From a virus (Duplodnaviria; Heunggongvirae; Uroviricota; Caudoviricetes): 7,859 nucleotides of DNA. The stretch lies in IMG/VR virus record IMGVR_UViG_2695420430_000010. One strand, 5' to 3'. This document shows positions 1 through 6,273 of the stretch, in pieces (positions within the stretch are counted from its first letter, which is position 1; each line of letters begins with the position of its first letter). The position numbers and the translations under genes are program-made. The notes under the pieces were generated by a model that worked only from the letters and a program-made list of their open reading frames with translations, ran no database searches and was not told the DNA's origin.

Positions 1-45
1 CGCCCGCTGACGGACTTCGGGGGAAAAACGAGTATTTTTAGTCAT
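1..45 (-). CDS. IS3-family transposase OrfA, first 15 codons only (partial, runs off the window)
   Basis: Minus-strand ATG at 45..43 translates to MTKNTRFSPEVRQRA; an AGGTAAACAGG-type Shine-Dalgarno region lies just upstream on the minus strand (plus coordinates about 50-60). Confidence 0.65.
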   Translation of the reverse strand, partial: MTKNTRFSPEVRQRA

Positions 46-99
46 CCTGTTTACCTCTTTCTCAGGGAGTTTAGTCTCCAGGATTTCCGGGGCGGTTCA
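1..99 (-). mobile_element. Terminal fragment of an IS3-family insertion sequence (IS629/IS1203-like): inverted-repeat end plus start of orfA; the element continues beyond the window start
   Basis: Reverse complement of 1..99 begins TGAACCGCCCCGG (typical IS3-family TG... terminus), followed about 55 nt later by an ATG opening MTKNTRFSPEVRQRA, which matches my recollection of the IS629-group OrfA N-terminus. Exact IS identity is unverified (needs ISfinder). Confidence 0.7.
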
Positions 100-1489: not shown

Positions 1490-1861
1490 ATTAAAGAGCA
1501 TTAGTTCAGATGTGAATTGACATTGTGTGGCACAGGGTTGGGCTAGCGTGGGGGTTTGCTTTGTGTAAGAAACGGATGCTCTGCAAATTACTACTAATGC
1601 TTAATGTTAGTCTGATCTGCTCCCCGATGATTAATACACCGCTATGTTAGTAATGTCTGTAGATCGCTGTGTGTTGCATCCATCGGTTGACCCCACAGTC
1701 CAAACCAGACTGTCAGCTTTGATTCGATTCTATCTACTCAACCTGTCAGGTAATGTCTGAGCTAATACACAGAGTACGGCTATCGCGAACTTTAAGCTAG
1801 GTATCTGATACGCACCGTTCACTTGTTTGTACTTCTTGCACTGACTAGCTATCGTGCGCAG

Positions 1862-1890
1862 TTATTTATAGGTAATCTCCAGTGTATAAT
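1862..1890 (+). promoter_or_regulatory. Candidate sigma70 promoter with extended -10 (TGTATAAT) for the 281-aa gene
   Basis: TGTATAAT at 1883-1890; weak -35 TTATTT at 1862-1867 with 17-nt spacer; the start codon lies about 35 nt downstream, preceded by SD CAGGAGG (1917-1923). Confidence 0.35.
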
Positions 1891-1928
1891 TTTCCAACTT
1901 ATGGGAGATTGTAAAACAGGAGGAATAT

Positions 1929-2774
1929 ATGAGGAAAAAATCGTTTGGACGTTGCCCGTTTGATTTCGACGAAGATGTAAAAAAAATAGCCGCGATAAAT
2001 AAATATATCCATGCGAAATTTGAGAGGCATAAAAATAAAATAGATAACCTAAAGGGGGTGGAACAAAAATTGATGGTTTTACATTACTTTAATGTACTGA
2101 ATGAACTTAGTAATCAGGCTATATTTTCTTTGAGTACCGGAGCCTTTTCAGCATCGGAAGTATTAACTAGAGTTATAATGGAACAGGCTGCCAATCAATT
2201 TTATATAGCAATTGATGATGGAAAAAATGCACAAGCATTACTCAAGGGTAGTAAGAAATTAGTTCATAGTAATGGGAAACGGTGGCTGGAGTGTTTAAAA
2301 TCCAAAGAAATGACTAATCCAGCAGCAGATGAAAGGATTCGTATCGGAAAAGAGCTAACTGATATGTTTAATAGATTGTGGCCAAATACACCTGAATATC
2401 CTGGAACCAAAAAGCTTTTCGAAGTAATTGGCTGGGAAACACACTATCATGCCTATTACGTCCCTCTTTGTGATTCAATACATACATTCTCTGATGATAT
2501 GGCAAATATAGTATCTCTATATAATGCAATCCAAAGCGATAAAACTACTGCTATCGAACTCACTCTTGCAGTTAAACAAGAAAATAAACGGCTGGCAATT
2601 TATAATGTCGTAATTGCTATTGGCCTGCGGTGTGAGGCCTTAGTAAATGTATTTAACTCTTTAGGTTATCGAGATATTATAACTGAAATGGCGCCAACAA
2701 TAGATGCAGTCAACCAGATTATAATTCGATATGATGATTTCGAACATTCCAGAATTTTTATTGTCAATAATTAA
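1929..2774 (+). CDS. Hypothetical protein, 281 aa, function unknown (AT-rich cargo gene; possible HEPN-like Rx5H motif near the C-terminus)
   Basis: Long ORF in a strongly AT-rich stretch with a near-consensus SD (AGGAGG, 5-nt spacer) and an upstream extended -10 promoter. No family recognised by eye. C-terminal IIIRYDDFEHSRIF contains an R-x5-H spacing compatible with a HEPN RNase motif (speculative). Confidence 0.75.
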   Translation: MRKKSFGRCPFDFDEDVKKIAAINKYIHAKFERHKNKIDNLKGVEQKLMVLHYFNVLNELSNQAIFSLSTGAFSASEVLTRVIMEQAANQFYIAIDDGKNAQALLKGSKKLVHSNGKRWLECLKSKEMTNPAADERIRIGKELTDMFNRLWPNTPEYPGTKKLFEVIGWETHYHAYYVPLCDSIHTFSDDMANIVSLYNAIQSDKTTAIELTLAVKQENKRLAIYNVVIAIGLRCEALVNVFNSLGYRDIITEMAPTIDAVNQIIIRYDDFEHSRIFIVNN

Positions 2775-2879
2775 TTGGCAGAATTCGTACATGCACAACA
2801 ACTAGTTATAGTTGACCTATTTCGCTCTTGAGAGACAACCATACTCAAATCTTCCACATTGCAGGAGATTTGAGTATGA

Positions 2880-3396
2880 ATACGTCACCGAGGAACAAAG
2901 ACAGTATCATAGGCCCAAAAAGACCACTTCAGATATCTCATATCTGGGGGCTCCAAATCCGGCTTGAACTGGAAGGTAAAACGCGTGATTTAGCTCGGTT
3001 TCAAGCAGAGCTACGGTGCTGCAACTGAAAAACTGGCAGTCCTATCCAATTTGAGATAACCAAAGGGACAAGAGAAGCTGTTTCTGCATTGATAAAGCTT
3101 GGCAATTTACGCAGTAAAGACTACTTGTTCCGATCTCGGGTCGGTACTAACCAACACATATCAATCCTGCAATATAACCGAATCTTTCATAGGGGGGAGA
3201 AAAGCTTGGTCTCGAAGATTCGCTTTACAGCACACATTCCATGAGAAGAACAAAACCTTGCCTTGTCTGCAAGAAAACTAAGAATCTCCGGGTGATCCAA
3301 CTTCCGTTGGGCCATAAGAAAACGGAAAGCACAGTTCGTTATCTGGGTATAGAAGTTGATGATGCATTAGAGATCTCTGAATCGATCGAAGTCTAA
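2880..3396 (+). pseudogene. Degenerate tyrosine recombinase (phage-type integrase) catalytic-domain remnant, broken by an in-frame stop and a frameshift
   Basis: One frame reads ...GPKRPLQISHIWGLQIRLELEG...(stop at 3026-3028)...KTGSPIQFEITKGTREAVSALIKLGNLRSKDYLFRSRVGTNQHISILQYNRIFHRGEKSLVSKIRFTAHIP(stop). A second frame (3193..3396) reads ...STHSMRRTKPCLVCKKTKNLRVIQLPLGHKKTESTVRYLGIEVDDALEISESIEV(stop). Together these recapitulate the integrase box I (R), LFPS-like segment, HxxR, and LLGH...Y catalytic-tyrosine motifs in the right order. Confidence 0.5.
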
Positions 3397-3808
3397 AGCT
3401 GTCAGGGCTGCAGCAGCAGCCCTGTGCCAAGAGCGTACCAATATATGTCTCAAAAAATTGGGCACAGGTCAATATCAATACCAACAACTCTGATTGTGCT
3501 CATGTGATTTACTCCTGTAGAAAACGCAGACAGTAAAAATATTTCACTGGCTGCTTCAGACAGGGCGTCCATCATATCATTACATAACAATAGCGGGGCA
3601 CGATATCTAGACATGCAGCAACGATGGACATAGAATGAGTACAATCAAAAGCATGTTTAACTACTTTAATTTAAAAATCTTAGAATCTTAGGTGTAGAGT
3701 TCAATACTTAGTTACATACCCTTTTGAAAGCATCACAAATCATAACTATGAGCCTGTTAAAGGCATAGGTATTCTTAATTAAGAGCATTTTAATGAGAGA
3801 AAAATAAA

Positions 3809-5182
3809 ATGAAAAGACTATATTATACCCATCATGATAGTCGAACCTTAAAACTTGCTATAGAAGGTGATGTTTCTGATAATGCGAATATTTTTACAGT
3901 AATTGTAGGTAAAAATGGCGTTGGAAAAAGCAGATTGTTATCTCAGATTGCTAAAGACTGTATTCAAGATGTTCATTTCTTGAAAACTTTTAATCCATTA
4001 TTTGACAGAGAAATAACACCAAAGTTAATTGCCGTATCTACCAGCCCATTCGATAAATTCCCTCCAGGGCGTAGGTCATTAAATCACCAAAGGAAAGAAA
4101 ATAATTATCGCTATGTGGGTATGCGTGGAGAAGGCCCCTTCGGCGTATCAAATGCCGTATCCCTTTTATCTTCAGCAGCGAGAGGTTGGCTAGAGAAACT
4201 TGCTTATTCAGAAAATCCTGCAAATTTACTCGATGTTTTTCATTCTATTGATTTTGAGCCCCATATAGAGTTTGTATTTAAACCAACTTACAACGGACCG
4301 GACACTCCTGACTATAACTTCATTGGTGTATATTCAGATGAGATATTAACGGAAGTTAAGGAGTTATATTTAAAATACAATATAAAAATTGACAGGAAGA
4401 ATATTGAGAGTCTCTTAAAGTTAAACTCCGAATCACGTCATGATATTTACGAAGCACTGGTTGAAATTAATCGATTTGAACCTGAACGTAGGGCTGTAAC
4501 CTTGTCAGTCGATTTTACCAATGGTGAAACATTGGTTGGCTCGACTTATGCGAATAATTATTTTTCTAGATCAATTCTTAAACTTATGAACGCTGGCTTC
4601 ATGAGATTGATGGATATGCGACTCATAAAAAAAAGCTATGGTCCCATGTCACTTAAACGTGCGAGCTCGGGAGAACAATGTTTATTAGTGATGTTGCTTG
4701 GAATTGCAGGGCATATAACTGATGGTTCTATAATATTAATTGATGAACCGGAAATAAGCTTGCATCCTCGATGGCAGGAAGAGTTTATCATTATGTTAAC
4801 AAAAGCATTTTTAACTTACTCAGGTTGTCAATTCATAATTGCAACTCATTCACCACAAATAATATCCAATTTGCCGAATAAAGGTTGTTATATAACATCT
4901 TTGTCGAAAAGTTATCTTTATAAAGCAAAATACTTTAGCAACCGGTCTGCAGACTATCAACTTGCGGAACTATTTGATGCCCCTGGCATTATGAATGAAT
5001 ACATTGCCAGGTTAGCTTTCAATTTACTTTCAAAAGTTAAGACTGCTAAGTTAGTAACAGATGATAATTGGCGTGAATTAAAACAACTCCAACTTCTCCT
5101 TGAAAACGTTAATAGTAATGACCCTATTAATGAACTCGTAAATTCCGTATCTCAGGTGTGTGAAATTTATGCCAAAAATTAA
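3809..5182 (+). CDS. ptuA: ABC/OLD-type (AAA_15/21-like) ATPase, PtuA-like component of a Septu-type defence module
   Basis: 457-aa ORF, AT-rich. Walker A GKNGVGKS (K40 codon 3926-3928); signature-like SSGEQ; Walker B IILIDEPE (D312/E313 at 4742-4747); H-loop ATHSP (His codon 4847-4849). Immediately followed by, and overlapping, an HNH nuclease gene. Confidence 0.8.
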   Translation: MKRLYYTHHDSRTLKLAIEGDVSDNANIFTVIVGKNGVGKSRLLSQIAKDCIQDVHFLKTFNPLFDREITPKLIAVSTSPFDKFPPGRRSLNHQRKENNYRYVGMRGEGPFGVSNAVSLLSSAARGWLEKLAYSENPANLLDVFHSIDFEPHIEFVFKPTYNGPDTPDYNFIGVYSDEILTEVKELYLKYNIKIDRKNIESLLKLNSESRHDIYEALVEINRFEPERRAVTLSVDFTNGETLVGSTYANNYFSRSILKLMNAGFMRLMDMRLIKKSYGPMSLKRASSGEQCLLVMLLGIAGHITDGSIILIDEPEISLHPRWQEEFIIMLTKAFLTYSGCQFIIATHSPQIISNLPNKGCYITSLSKSYLYKAKYFSNRSADYQLAELFDAPGIMNEYIARLAFNLLSKVKTAKLVTDDNWRELKQLQLLLENVNSNDPINELVNSVSQVCEIYAKN

Positions 5183-5804
5183 AAATCCAATTAGATTCAG
5201 CGCAGAGTCATTAGATATTATTGAGAAAAAATTGTCTTCTCCAGATTTTAAGCATACCAACTGGGGAGATGATGATTTGCAAGTTCTCCGTGCAGAAATT
5301 AGAAATCATTACAGAGAAGAACAAAAGCTAGAATGTGTATATTGTCATGAGCCTATTGGGGTAAGAGCTGCACAAGCTGCTCCTATAGAGCATATTGTGC
5401 CAAAATCTCAATATCTATGTTTTATTTTTGAACCTAAGAATCTATGTGTAGTATGTCCTGACTGCAATGAATTCAAAGGTAAAAATGAAGTGTTATTTGA
5501 ACCCGTAATAAATGGGGGGCGGCGCAAAAACTATCCAACTGCATCTGCATCATTTCGCATCGTTCATCCACATATAGATGATTATGAGATGCATATTATA
5601 AAAGCAAATCGTGTTTATGTGGACAAAACACCTAAAGGGCACTATACCATTGGAATATGTAAACTAAATAGATTTTTTCATTATTTTGGGATGTGTGATG
5701 AATTTGTTAATGATGCAAAAATTGCTGAGGCAAATGAAAATTTTTTCAAAAAAGGTAGTATTACTACTAATGAATTATTGGATGATGACATTCATTTGAT
5801 TTAA
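5169..5804 (+). CDS. ptuB: HNH endonuclease, PtuB-like component of a Septu-type defence module
   Basis: Motif CVYCHEPIG...IEHIVPKS...N...CPDCNEFKGKN is a classic HNH (CxxC-H...H...N...CxxC) core. The ATG at 5169 overlaps the end of the ATPase gene by 14 nt (ATPase stop at 5180-5182), implying translational coupling. The ORF track's GTG at 5160 is a less likely start. Confidence 0.8.
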   Translation: MPKIKNPIRFSAESLDIIEKKLSSPDFKHTNWGDDDLQVLRAEIRNHYREEQKLECVYCHEPIGVRAAQAAPIEHIVPKSQYLCFIFEPKNLCVVCPDCNEFKGKNEVLFEPVINGGRRKNYPTASASFRIVHPHIDDYEMHIIKANRVYVDKTPKGHYTIGICKLNRFFHYFGMCDEFVNDAKIAEANENFFKKGSITTNELLDDDIHLI

Positions 5805-5913
5805 CTATGAATTATTATATTGTAAAGTAATCAGGTAAGATATGTTAGACAGTGAGACTATTGCCTTACAGAATTCATTATTCTTATGGATCGCCTTTCT
5901 GACTGATTTCATA

Positions 5914-5942
5914 TTGGCGGGGTAACGGGAGTTAAGTAGAAT
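5914..5942 (+). promoter_or_regulatory. Candidate promoter of the hok/mok mRNA
   Basis: TTGGCG (5914-5919), 17-nt spacer, TAGAAT (5937-5942). The predicted start lies just before the 5' element (5947-5960) that is complementary to the 3' end of the transcript. Confidence 0.35.
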
Positions 5943-5946
5943 GGCT

Positions 5947-5960
5947 GCGGGTGCTTGAGG
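5947..5960 (+). promoter_or_regulatory. 5' fold-back element of hok mRNA, complementary to 3' segment 6323-6337
   Basis: GCGGGTGCTTGAGG (5947-5960) against the reverse complement of CCTCAACGCACCCGC (6323-6337), which is GCGGGTGCGTTGAGG: near-perfect long-range 5'/3' complementarity, as in the fold-back-inhibition structure of hok-family mRNAs. Confidence 0.45.
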
Positions 5961-6060
5961 CTATCTGTCTCAGGCATGAACACCAAAGGCAGATAGAGAA
6001 AAGCCCCAGTTAACATTACGCGTCCTGCAAGACGCTTAACATTAATCTGAGGCCAATTTC

Positions 6061-6273
6061 ATGCTAGACACATGTAGGTTAGCCTCTTACGTGCCGGAAG
6101 GCAAGGAGAAGCAGGCTATGAAGCAGCAAAAGGCGATGTTAATCGCCCTGATCGTCATCTGTTTAACCGTCATAGTGACGACACTGGTAACGAGGAAAGA
6201 CCTCTGCGAGGTACGAATCCGAACCGGCCAGACGGAGGTCGCTGTCTTCACAGCTTACGAACCTGAGGAGTAA
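6061..6273 (+). CDS. Mok-like reading frame (in-frame N-terminally extended form overlapping hok; regulatory)
   Basis: ATG 6061 opens a 70-codon frame that contains hok in the same frame, comparable to chromosomal mokC/hokC as I recall them. A candidate antisense promoter sits over this start region. Confidence 0.4.
   Translation: MLDTCRLASYVPEGKEKQAMKQQKAMLIALIVICLTVIVTTLVTRKDLCEVRIRTGQTEVAVFTAYEPEE
6076..6104 (-). promoter_or_regulatory. Candidate promoter for a Sok-like antisense RNA
   Basis: On the minus strand: TTGCCT (plus 6104-6099), 17-nt spacer, TAACCT (plus 6081-6076). It would transcribe leftwards across the mok start/SD region, the usual Sok target. Confidence 0.3.
6118..6273 (+). 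CDS. hokD: Hok/Gef-family type I toxin (HokD/RelF-like small membrane peptide)
   Basis: 51-aa product MKQQKAMLIALIVICLTVIVTTLVTRKDLCEVRIRTGQTEVAVFTAYEPEE matches the Hok family and specifically my recollection of HokD (RelF). SD AAGGAG at 6103-6108. rem lies downstream, as in Qin. Confidence 0.85.
   Translation: MKQQKAMLIALIVICLTVIVTTLVTRKDLCEVRIRTGQTEVAVFTAYEPEE

What the first reader, a model, noticed from the sequence alone, without database searches (positions are those of the whole stretch)
3809..5804. Two-gene ABC-ATPase + HNH-nuclease module with Septu (PtuA/PtuB) architecture in an AT-rich prophage island
An ATPase with intact Walker A (GKNGVGKS), signature-like SSGEQ, Walker B (IILIDEPE) and H-loop (ATHSP) is coupled by a 14-nt overlap to a roughly 210-aa protein with a textbook HNH core (CVYCHE...EHIVP...CPDCN). 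ATPase+HNH pairs of this size are the defining architecture of Septu anti-phage systems. Base composition is far more AT-rich than the flanking phage genes, indicating horizontally acquired cargo. I cannot tell by eye whether it belongs to a known Septu subtype or is a divergent or unclassified ATPase-HNH pair.
Basis: partly seen in the sequence, partly recalled or inferred. Interest (0 to 1): 0.75.

Follow-up and report, generated by a model that had tools for sequence, protein, structure and literature searches.

The report
Prophage-borne Septu (PtuAB) defence operon
This is an ordinary, intact copy of the known two-gene Septu anti-phage system (PtuA ATPase plus PtuB HNH nuclease), carried as AT-rich cargo in an E. 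coli lambda-like prophage and recognised immediately by standard defence-system models.

Summary
ptuA (3809-5182, 457 aa) and ptuB (5169-5804, 211 aa) overlap by 14 nt.

The Septu reading also holds. Both proteins match PADLOC type I Septu models end to end (PtuA 550 bits, PtuB 278 bits). The predicted folds are closest to solved PtuA and PtuB chains. The overlapping gene pair is conserved with unrelated neighbours in Klebsiella, Dickeya and Pseudomonas, and both genes are under purifying selection. No retron reverse transcriptase is present, so this is a stand-alone (type I) system.

The locus is ≥99.8% identical in 19 of 5,426 complete E. coli genomes, including EPEC E2348/69 (WP_000827088.1 / WP_001124204.1).

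The conserved catalytic residue is H75 (codon 5391-5393), with N91 and N100.

This lineage is under about 20% identical to the Septu pairs studied biochemically. I found no paper that tests it, so its trigger and substrate (tRNA-Tyr or DNA) are inferred.

Already known kind; low interest.

The parts
3809..5182 (+). ptuA: an ABC/SMC-type ATPase of 457 aa. Walker A is at G34-S41 (K40, codon 3926-3928). The signature S286-Q290, Walker B D312/E313 (codons 4742-4747) and H-loop H347 are all present. A three-helix C-terminal extension spans about residues 392-456.
   Evidence: ORF. PADLOC PtuA model PDLC00283, 550 bits, residues 2-455 on model positions 3-447 of 448. Pfam AAA_21 and AAA_15. Catalytic residues invariant in 40 homologues. 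AF2 model pLDDT 82.5. Best Foldseek matches are the PtuA chains of retron Eco7/Ec83 and of E. coli Septu 8EEA.
5169..5804 (+). ptuB: an HNH (beta-beta-alpha-Me) nuclease of 211 aa. The zinc-knuckle cysteines are C56/C59 and C96/C99. The catalytic residues are H75 (codon 5391-5393), N91 (5439-5441) and N100 (5466-5468). An invariant H133-P-H135-x-D137 motif lies in the C-terminal part.
5154..5182 (+). Overlap junction. An AGGTG Shine-Dalgarno-like motif lies at 5154-5158. The ptuB ATG (5169) is nested in the last codons of ptuA, giving a 14-nt overlap (5169-5182). This probably couples translation of the two genes.
   Evidence: Sequence. The same junction is conserved in Klebsiella, Dickeya and Pseudomonas copies. 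Overlaps of 14-17 nt are seen in every homologous locus examined.
3600..3808 (+). AT-rich upstream region that presumably holds the native promoter. Candidate sites are 3608-3636 (TAGACA-17-TAGAAT) and 3657-3686.
   Evidence: Consensus scan only. The number of promoter-like sites is not above the shuffle expectation, so this part is an inference.
1577..5876 (.). Variable AT-rich cargo slot of the lambdoid prophage, between the replication genes and hok/sok. It carries a DUF5677 gene (1929-2774), a tyrosine-recombinase pseudogene (about 2876-3396) and ptuAB.
   Evidence: Homology to the EDL933 and ATCC 25922 prophages stops at about 1399-1576 on the left and resumes at about 5877-5922 on the right. 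Those prophages carry other cargo in the slot: paa, or a DUF4209 gene. GC profile.

Best explanation
This is a stand-alone (type I) Septu anti-phage system carried as a moron in the variable slot of a lambdoid E. coli prophage, between the replication genes and hok/sok.

Shown here:
- There are two intact, translationally overlapping genes.
- PtuA is an ABC-type ATPase with every nucleotide-binding motif intact. PtuB is an HNH nuclease with an intact Cys4 zinc site and H-N-N catalytic residues.
- The pair travels as a self-contained cassette between genomes and is under purifying selection.

Inferred from characterised Septu and retron I-A PtuAB complexes:
- PtuA oligomerises. Pairs of its C-terminal helices clamp PtuB, which holds the nuclease in a nucleotide-bound, inactive state.
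- A cue from phage infection relieves this inhibition. PtuB then cuts an essential nucleic acid. This is most probably a host tRNA (tRNA-Tyr variable loop in Septu EcB88 and retron-Eco7), or alternatively DNA by nicking (Septu from ATCC 25922).
- Translation or replication stops, so the infected cell arrests and phage yield collapses, which is an abortive-infection-like outcome.
- The lysogen gains protection against unrelated lytic phages, Demerecviridae and T-even types in the tested relatives.
For: - Family models: full-length matches to PADLOC Septu type I models, PtuA at 550 bits (E 1e-165) and PtuB at 278 bits (E 1e-83). Pfam AAA_21/AAA_15 and HNH score above their cut-offs.
- Conserved residues: Walker A, signature, Walker B and H-loop, and C56/C59/H75/N91/C96/C99, are invariant in 40 homologues each.
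- Conserved cassette: the overlapping pair sits among different neighbours in P. aeruginosa, Pseudomonas sp., Klebsiella (prophage end) and Dickeya (next to GASH/DO-GTPase genes and an IS).
- Selection and composition: dN/dS is 0.13-0.22. The cassette is AT-rich relative to its flanks in three of the four other hosts examined, and only on its right flank in Dickeya.
- No retron: no reverse transcriptase is annotated within 12 kb either side in E2348/69, and Rfam finds only sok in the window.
- Mechanism from the literature: EcB88 and Eco7 cleave tRNA-Tyr and need Walker A/B and HNH residues (PMC13096335). The ATCC 25922 complex is 6:2 PtuA:PtuB, is inhibited by ATP and nicks DNA, and the PtuA C-terminal extension clamps PtuB (PMC12640716, PMC12819146).
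Against: - There are no experimental data for this lineage. No paper in the searchable library cites WP_000827088 or WP_001124204.
- Sequence identity to every characterised PtuA or PtuB is low. PDB sequence hits to PtuA cover only the Walker B region for most entries. PtuB has no single-sequence PDB hit.
- Substrate and trigger differ among the characterised relatives, so they cannot be transferred with confidence.
- The PtuB model is only moderate (pLDDT 68), and the PtuA structural matches have low TM-scores (about 0.35).
- No promoter or terminator is supported above chance.
- The host prophage is decaying: it has IS insertions and pseudogenes. Expression is therefore unproven.
Confidence: 0.88

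Rival explanations
1. It is the effector half of a type I-A retron (type II Septu, as in retron Ec78/Eco7 or Ec83/Eco4). In those systems PtuAB is held in check by a reverse transcriptase and msDNA, which here would be lost or lie outside the window.
For: The closest solved structures for PtuA are retron-associated PtuA chains. The only NCBIfam hits are to the retron Ec78 PtuA and PtuB models. The best PDB profile hits for PtuB are retron I-A PtuB chains.
Against: - NCBIfam retron PtuA and PtuB scores are far below the equivalog cut-offs: 65.8 against 500, and 30.6 against 150.
- No reverse transcriptase ORF or domain is found in the window, nor within 12 kb either side in E2348/69.
- None of the four other genera examined has a reverse transcriptase next to the pair.
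- Walker A begins at residue 34, so the N-terminal extension that retron PtuA uses to bind the RT is absent (PMC12819146; alignment numbering in the PMC13096335 supplement).
Confidence: 0.03
2. It is a PARIS-, Gabija- or OLD-type system, meaning an ABC ATPase of the AriA/OLD class rather than Septu, and it works by their mechanisms.
For: The highest-scoring PDB sequence hits of the PtuA sequence and profile are AriA of PARIS (E 1.6e-12 and 4.7e-17). Many AriA and PDC-M01A models hit in PADLOC.
Against: - The AriA hits are local. They cover about 75 residues around the signature and Walker B, and score at most 78 bits. The PtuA model match is end to end at 550 bits.
- The partner is an HNH protein of PtuB architecture. 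It is not the TOPRIM/DUF4435 AriB, and there is no fused TOPRIM domain as in OLD or GajA.
Confidence: 0.02
3. It is a selfish toxin-type addiction or stabilisation module (the Pfam AAA_21 name reads 'putative AbiEii toxin'), or an HNH homing or packaging nuclease of the phage, with no role in defence against other phages.
For: It lies next to a hok/sok addiction locus in a decaying prophage. Free PtuAB of retron-Eco7 is toxic when overexpressed (PMC12640716). HNH proteins in phages are often homing or terminase-associated.
Against: - It is not near terminase or packaging genes.
- The HNH protein is always coupled to the ATPase by an overlapping start.
- Whole-protein PtuB architecture, not just an HNH core, is recovered.
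- Its neighbours elsewhere are defence or conflict genes and the ends of mobile elements.
- Tested members of the family protect against phages (PMC13096335).
Confidence: 0.04
4. It is an intact-looking but silent relic in a defective prophage, and is not expressed or functional in this host.
For: The prophage carries an IS3-family insertion in the replication gene (window 1-99 and 100 onward). It also has a DUF1627 pseudogene and an integrase pseudogene, and E2348/69 has an extra IS481. No promoter signal rises above chance.
Against: Both ORFs are intact, and the 2.3-kb region including ptuAB is ≥99.8% identical in all 19 carrier genomes. All catalytic residues are retained. dN/dS against Klebsiella and Dickeya orthologues is 0.13-0.22.
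Confidence: 0.03

Closest known systems
Septu type I (stand-alone PtuA/PtuB; Doron et al. 2018 family, PADLOC models PDLC00283 / PDLC00325)
   Same: It has the same two-gene architecture of ATPase followed by HNH. Both proteins match the subfamily models over their full length. Sizes agree (457 and 211 aa against model lengths of 448 and 213). No third gene is conserved.
   Different: Nothing that defines the family differs. This particular subfamily has no published experiment that I could find.
E. coli ATCC 25922 Septu (PDB 8EE4/8EE7/8EEA; 6:2 PtuA:PtuB 'inflammasome-like' complex, ATP-inhibited DNA nicking)
   Different: - Sequence identity is about 16-20%.
- Sequence-level PtuA similarity is confined to the Walker B region.
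- The window PtuA keeps the signature-motif glutamine (SSGEQ, Q290 invariant). The ATCC 25922 PtuA has leucine at that position and lacks ATPase activity (PMC12819146). This one may therefore hydrolyse ATP.
- PtuB is 211 aa here, against 243 aa.
Septu EcB88 (E. coli JBBDAGI-19-0041; tRNA-Tyr variable-loop cleavage; PMC13096335)
   Same: It is also a stand-alone PtuAB in E. coli of similar size (452 aa PtuA). It requires Walker A/B and H/N residues of the HNH motif. By coincidence, the mutated PtuB residues in that study are also numbered H75 and N91.
   Different: The sequences are clearly different in the paper's supplementary alignment. It is therefore unknown whether the window system also targets tRNA-Tyr or blocks the same phages.
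Retron type I-A PtuAB (Ec78/Eco7, Ec83/Eco4; 'type II Septu')
   Different: There is no RT, ncRNA or msDNA partner. The N-terminal extension of PtuA is absent. NCBIfam equivalog cut-offs are not met.
PARIS AriA/AriB and OLD-family ATPase-nucleases
   Same: The ABC ATPase core is related: signature, Walker B and H-loop.
   Different: The nuclease partner here is HNH, not TOPRIM. The similarity is local only.

Membership tests
Septu type I (stand-alone PtuAB) | A PtuA protein: an ABC/AAA_15-AAA_21 ATPase that matches a PtuA family model over its full length. | tested here: met
   PADLOC PDLC00283, 550 bits, E 1.2e-165, residues 2-455 on model positions 3-447 of 448. Pfam AAA_21 at 74 bits and AAA_15 at 62 bits, both above cut-off.
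Septu type I (stand-alone PtuAB) | A PtuB protein: an HNH nuclease that matches a PtuB family model over its full length. | tested here: met
Septu type I (stand-alone PtuAB) | ptuA and ptuB are adjacent on the same strand in one operon. | tested here: met
   The genes overlap by 14 nt on the + strand. The overlap is conserved in four other genera.
Septu type I (stand-alone PtuAB) | The catalytic residues shown to be required for defence are intact: Walker A Lys, Walker B Asp, and the HNH His and Asn. | tested here: met
   K40, D312/E313, H75 and N91 are present and invariant in 40 homologues. The requirement was shown for Septu EcB88 (PMC13096335).
Septu type I (stand-alone PtuAB) | It confers protection against phage infection. 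| not testable with these tools
   This needs cloning and plaque assays. No publication on this lineage was found.
Septu type I (stand-alone PtuAB) | PtuA oligomer binds PtuB through the PtuA C-terminal helices. | tested here: inconclusive
   The AF2 monomer shows three C-terminal helices, 392-456, as in solved PtuA (PMC12819146). No complex was modelled.
Retron type I-A (type II Septu) | A reverse transcriptase and msr/msd ncRNA are encoded next to ptuAB. | tested here: not met
   There is no RT ORF or domain in the window. None is annotated within 12 kb either side in E2348/69. Rfam finds only sok.
Retron type I-A (type II Septu) | The proteins reach the NCBIfam equivalog scores for retron Ec78 PtuA and PtuB. 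| tested here: not met
   65.8 bits against a cut-off of 500, and 30.6 bits against a cut-off of 150.
PARIS (AriA/AriB) | An AriA ATPase paired with a TOPRIM/DUF4435 AriB. | tested here: not met
   AriA model hits are local only, at most 78 bits. The partner is HNH, and no TOPRIM domain is found.

The most novel reading that the evidence does not exclude
This sub-lineage is found in Enterobacterales, Pseudomonas, Xanthomonadales and Vibrio. It is under about 20% identical to all characterised PtuAB pairs and keeps a canonical ABC signature glutamine. It could therefore use real ATP hydrolysis, sense a different phage cue, and cut a different substrate (another tRNA, or DNA) than the three characterised E. 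coli PtuAB systems. That would make it a functionally distinct Septu subtype. Separately, the 8.5-kb circular record could mean it rides on a lambda-dv-like mini-replicon.
Probability: 0.25. Interest if true: 0.4.

Novelty: already known. Interest (0 to 1): 0.15.

Why it matters
It adds little that is new. Septu is an established defence family, and this locus is called directly by PADLOC-type models. It sits in a widely used reference strain, EPEC E2348/69.

Its modest value has three parts:
- It documents that the variable slot between the replication genes and hok/sok in lambdoid prophages carries a defence system in about 0.35% of complete E. coli genomes. Related prophages carry virulence or other morons there (paa, DUF4209).
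- It points to a widespread PtuAB sub-lineage that, as far as I could find, has not been tested. A comparison of trigger, ATPase use and substrate (tRNA-Tyr against DNA) would help resolve why published Septu substrates disagree.
- It corrects the residue to mutate in any follow-up: H75, not H60.

Tried and rejected
- Retron association: no RT or ncRNA in the window or in the E2348/69 flanks, and NCBIfam retron equivalog cut-offs are missed by a wide margin. Rejected.
- PARIS/OLD classification: only local ATPase-core similarity, and the partner is HNH rather than TOPRIM. Rejected.
- A conserved third gene:
  - The DUF5677 gene upstream is not linked to ptuAB in other genomes. A same-length upstream ORF in L007 is unrelated. 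An 88% identical DUF5677 homologue sits alone in a P2-like prophage.
  - A DUF5677 ORF tested in Enterococcus showed no defence (PMC12632615).
- Identity with Septu EcB88: the matching H75/N91 numbering is coincidental, and the sequences in that paper's supplement differ.
- att-like direct repeats flanking the island: none found, only short chance repeats.
- Promoter and terminator scans: not above shuffle expectation.
- Own Pfam check of the integrase pseudogene fragments: only E 0.21 for the C-terminal motif, so that annotation rests on RefSeq.
- Sequenced phage genomes (INPHARED): none carries this ptuAB at the nucleotide level. The only protein-level matches are a partial Vibrio phage hit and a short unannotated human-faecal phage contig.
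- The Li et al. 2024 Septu structure paper (PMC12318543) is not held. Its findings are cited second-hand through PMC12640716 and PMC12819146.
Full report
**Observation**

The six-frame ORF list shows a 457-aa ORF at 3809-5182 (+). A second ORF follows at 5160-5804 (+), whose in-frame ATG at 5169 gives 211 aa.
- PtuA: Walker A GKNGVGKS at residues 34-41, with K40 at codon 3926-3928; signature-like SSGEQ at 286-290; Walker B IILIDEPE at 308-315 (D312/E313); H-loop ATHSP at 345-349.
- PtuB: CVYCHE at 56-61, EHIVP at 74-78 and CPDCN at 96-100.

ATG 5169 is the real start of the second gene. RefSeq uses it. Forty homologues share a near-invariant Met-Pro N-terminus. The junction sequence CAGGTGTGTGAAATYTATGCCnAnAATTAA, with an AGGTG ribosome-binding motif and the ATG nested in the last ptuA codons, is conserved in Klebsiella, Dickeya and Pseudomonas. 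The 14-nt overlap is therefore real.

ptuAB is 34.6% GC and the stretch 1501-6000 is 37%, against 53% and 51% for the flanks.

**Where it sits**

The window is E. coli DNA. A 2.3-kb query (3600-5900) that includes ptuAB is ≥99.8% identical in 19 of 5,426 complete E. coli genomes, including EPEC O127:H6 E2348/69. There the two genes are annotated only as "AAA family ATPase" (WP_000827088.1) and "HNH endonuclease" (WP_001124204.1).

The surroundings are a lambdoid prophage integrated next to potC. The gene order is integrase, excisionase, exonuclease, dicB, cI/cro-like genes, YdaT, a DnaT-like gene, replication protein P, then the island, then hokD, rem, DUF968, RusA and an antiterminator.

Comparison with the equivalent prophages of EDL933 and ATCC 25922 places the edges of the variable slot at about 1400-1576 on the left and 5877-5922 on the right. 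Those phages carry other cargo in the slot: DUF1627, a fimbrial pseudogene and paa in one, a DUF4209 gene in the other. It is a moron slot between the replication module and hok/sok. I found no flanking direct repeats.

**What it is**

Both proteins match PADLOC Septu type I models from end to end:
- PtuA matches PDLC00283 at 550 bits (E 1e-165), residues 2-455 on model positions 3-447 of 448.
- PtuB matches PDLC00325 at 278 bits (E 1e-83), residues 7-212 on model positions 2-205 of 213.

Pfam finds AAA_21 and AAA_15 in PtuA and HNH in PtuB, all above the curated cut-offs.

The PtuA family search returned more than 1,500 relatives, across Enterobacterales, Pseudomonas, Xanthomonadales, Vibrio and others. 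The PtuB search returned 159.

I inspected the locus in four other genera: P. aeruginosa (43% identity), Pseudomonas sp. (66%), Klebsiella variicola (85%) and Dickeya dadantii (70%). In each, the ATPase is followed by the HNH gene with a 14-17-nt overlap, while the neighbouring genes are unrelated:
- a chromosomal island with an integrase in P. aeruginosa;
- a prophage end next to tail genes in Klebsiella;
- a cluster with GASH/DO-GTPase genes and an IS in Dickeya.

The pair is AT-rich relative to its flanks in three of those four hosts. In Dickeya it is AT-rich only against the right flank. dN/dS against the Klebsiella and Dickeya copies is 0.13-0.14 for ptuA and 0.15-0.22 for ptuB. It is thus a self-contained, mobile cassette under selection.

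**Structure**

An AlphaFold2 model of PtuA (pLDDT 82.5) finds its best PDB matches in the PtuA chains of retron Eco7/Ec78 and Ec83. Next come the E. coli Septu PtuA (8EEA) and AriA of PARIS. All have probability 1.00 but low TM-scores, as expected for a multi-domain protein with mobile arms.

**Membership and rivals**

All sequence-testable defining features of stand-alone Septu are met.

The retron-linked form (type I-A retron, "type II Septu") is excluded:
- No reverse transcriptase or ncRNA lies in the window or within 12 kb either side in E2348/69.
- The NCBIfam retron PtuA and PtuB equivalog scores are 65.8 against a cut-off of 500, and 30.6 against 150.
- Walker A starts at residue 34, so the N-terminal extension that retron PtuA uses to hold the RT is missing.

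PARIS/OLD is also excluded. The AriA similarity is local, about 75 residues around the signature and Walker B, and the partner is HNH rather than TOPRIM.

K40 and D312/E313 are invariant and are good targets. The "HNH histidine" at codon 5346-5348 is H60, the residue after the first CxxC. That position is R, K, L or Q in homologues. The invariant catalytic set is H75 (EHIVP, codon 5391-5393), N91 (5439-5441) and N100 (5466-5468). C56/C59/C96/C99 form the zinc site.

**How it most likely works**

The parts and their integrity are shown here. The mechanism below is inferred from relatives.
- In solved PtuAB complexes, PtuA oligomerises: 6:2 PtuA:PtuB in the ATCC 25922 Septu and 4:2 in retron-released PtuAB. 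Pairs of PtuA C-terminal helices clamp PtuB. In the ATCC 25922 system, ATP binding inhibits the nuclease (PMC12640716, PMC12819146).
- The window PtuA model has the matching three C-terminal helices at 392-456.
- On infection, the nuclease is unleashed. [quoted passage not shown] They block Demerecviridae and some T-even phages with an abortive-infection-like phenotype, and they require the Walker A/B and HNH residues (PMC13096335).
- The ATCC 25922 complex and retron-Ec78-released PtuAB nick supercoiled DNA in vitro (PMC12819146). Published substrates therefore disagree.
- The window PtuA keeps the ABC signature glutamine (Q290, invariant). The ATPase-dead ATCC 25922 PtuA has leucine there (PMC12819146). 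I therefore expect real ATP hydrolysis, but this is inference.

**Relation to characterised systems**

The window pair is a different lineage from all three experimentally studied E. coli PtuAB pairs. Structural-alignment identity is about 13-20%. Sequence-level similarity is limited. Its sequences visibly differ from EcB88 in that paper's supplementary alignment. No paper in the searchable library cites its accessions, and none links Septu to this locus in E2348/69.

**Verdict**

This is a standard stand-alone Septu operon carried as prophage cargo, and existing HMM catalogues already recognise it. The kind is already known and interest is low. The only open points are the trigger and substrate of this untested sub-lineage.

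Noticed in passing
window 1-99 and 100-728: The first 99 bases are the terminus of an IS3-family element (IS1203/IS629-like). It abuts a 5'-truncated DnaT-like replication gene. Homology to the intact 1,041-nt gene of E2348/69 starts at window base 100, which is 403 nt into that gene. The prophage in the source strain is therefore replication-defective.
   Followed up: partly
window 5949-6273: A complete hok/sok-type type I toxin-antitoxin locus lies immediately right of the island: a sok RNA match at 5949-6123 (Rfam RF01794, 117 bits) and a mok/hok ORF at 6061-6273 (Pfam HOK_GEF). In E2348/69 an IS481 element is inserted at about window 6104-6109, inside this locus.
   Followed up: partly
window 1929-2774: A DUF5677 gene (281 aa, phrog_4167) shares the AT-rich island but is not linked to ptuAB elsewhere. 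An 88% identical homologue sits alone between the tail-fibre-assembly and tail-sheath genes of a P2-like prophage (L016), where it looks like inserted accessory cargo. From memory, not tested here, that position corresponds to a known P2 moron/defence hotspot. It could be an independent cargo or defence candidate. A DUF5677 ORF tested in Enterococcus gave no protection.
   Followed up: partly
window ~2876-3396: RefSeq annotates a frameshifted tyrosine recombinase/integrase pseudogene between the DUF5677 gene and ptuA. It may be a remnant of the element that delivered the cargo. My own Pfam check recovers only the C-terminal catalytic-Tyr motif, weakly (E 0.21).
   Followed up: partly
NZ_CP148379.1 (L019), whole 8,461-bp record: One genome holds the region as an 8.5-kb record annotated as a circular plasmid. 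It contains the cI/cro-like genes, YdaT, the DnaT-like gene, P, DUF5677, ptuAB, hokD and rem. It is either a lambda-dv-like autonomous mini-replicon carrying Septu or an assembly artefact.
   Followed up: no
L009 (EDL933) and L010 (ATCC 25922), slot equivalent to window ~1577-5876: The same slot in related lambdoid prophages carries different cargo: DUF1627, a fimbrial pseudogene and the Paa adhesin in one, a DUF4209 protein in the other. This marks it as a moron exchange hotspot between the replication genes and hok.
   Followed up: partly
window 5565-5579 (PtuB residues 133-137): An invariant H-P-H-x-D motif, together with invariant Y122/P123, G157 and C164-x-L-N-R, lies in the C-terminal half of PtuB, outside the HNH core. 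Its role (a second metal site or the PtuA interface) is unknown, and the model is poorly confident there.
   Followed up: no
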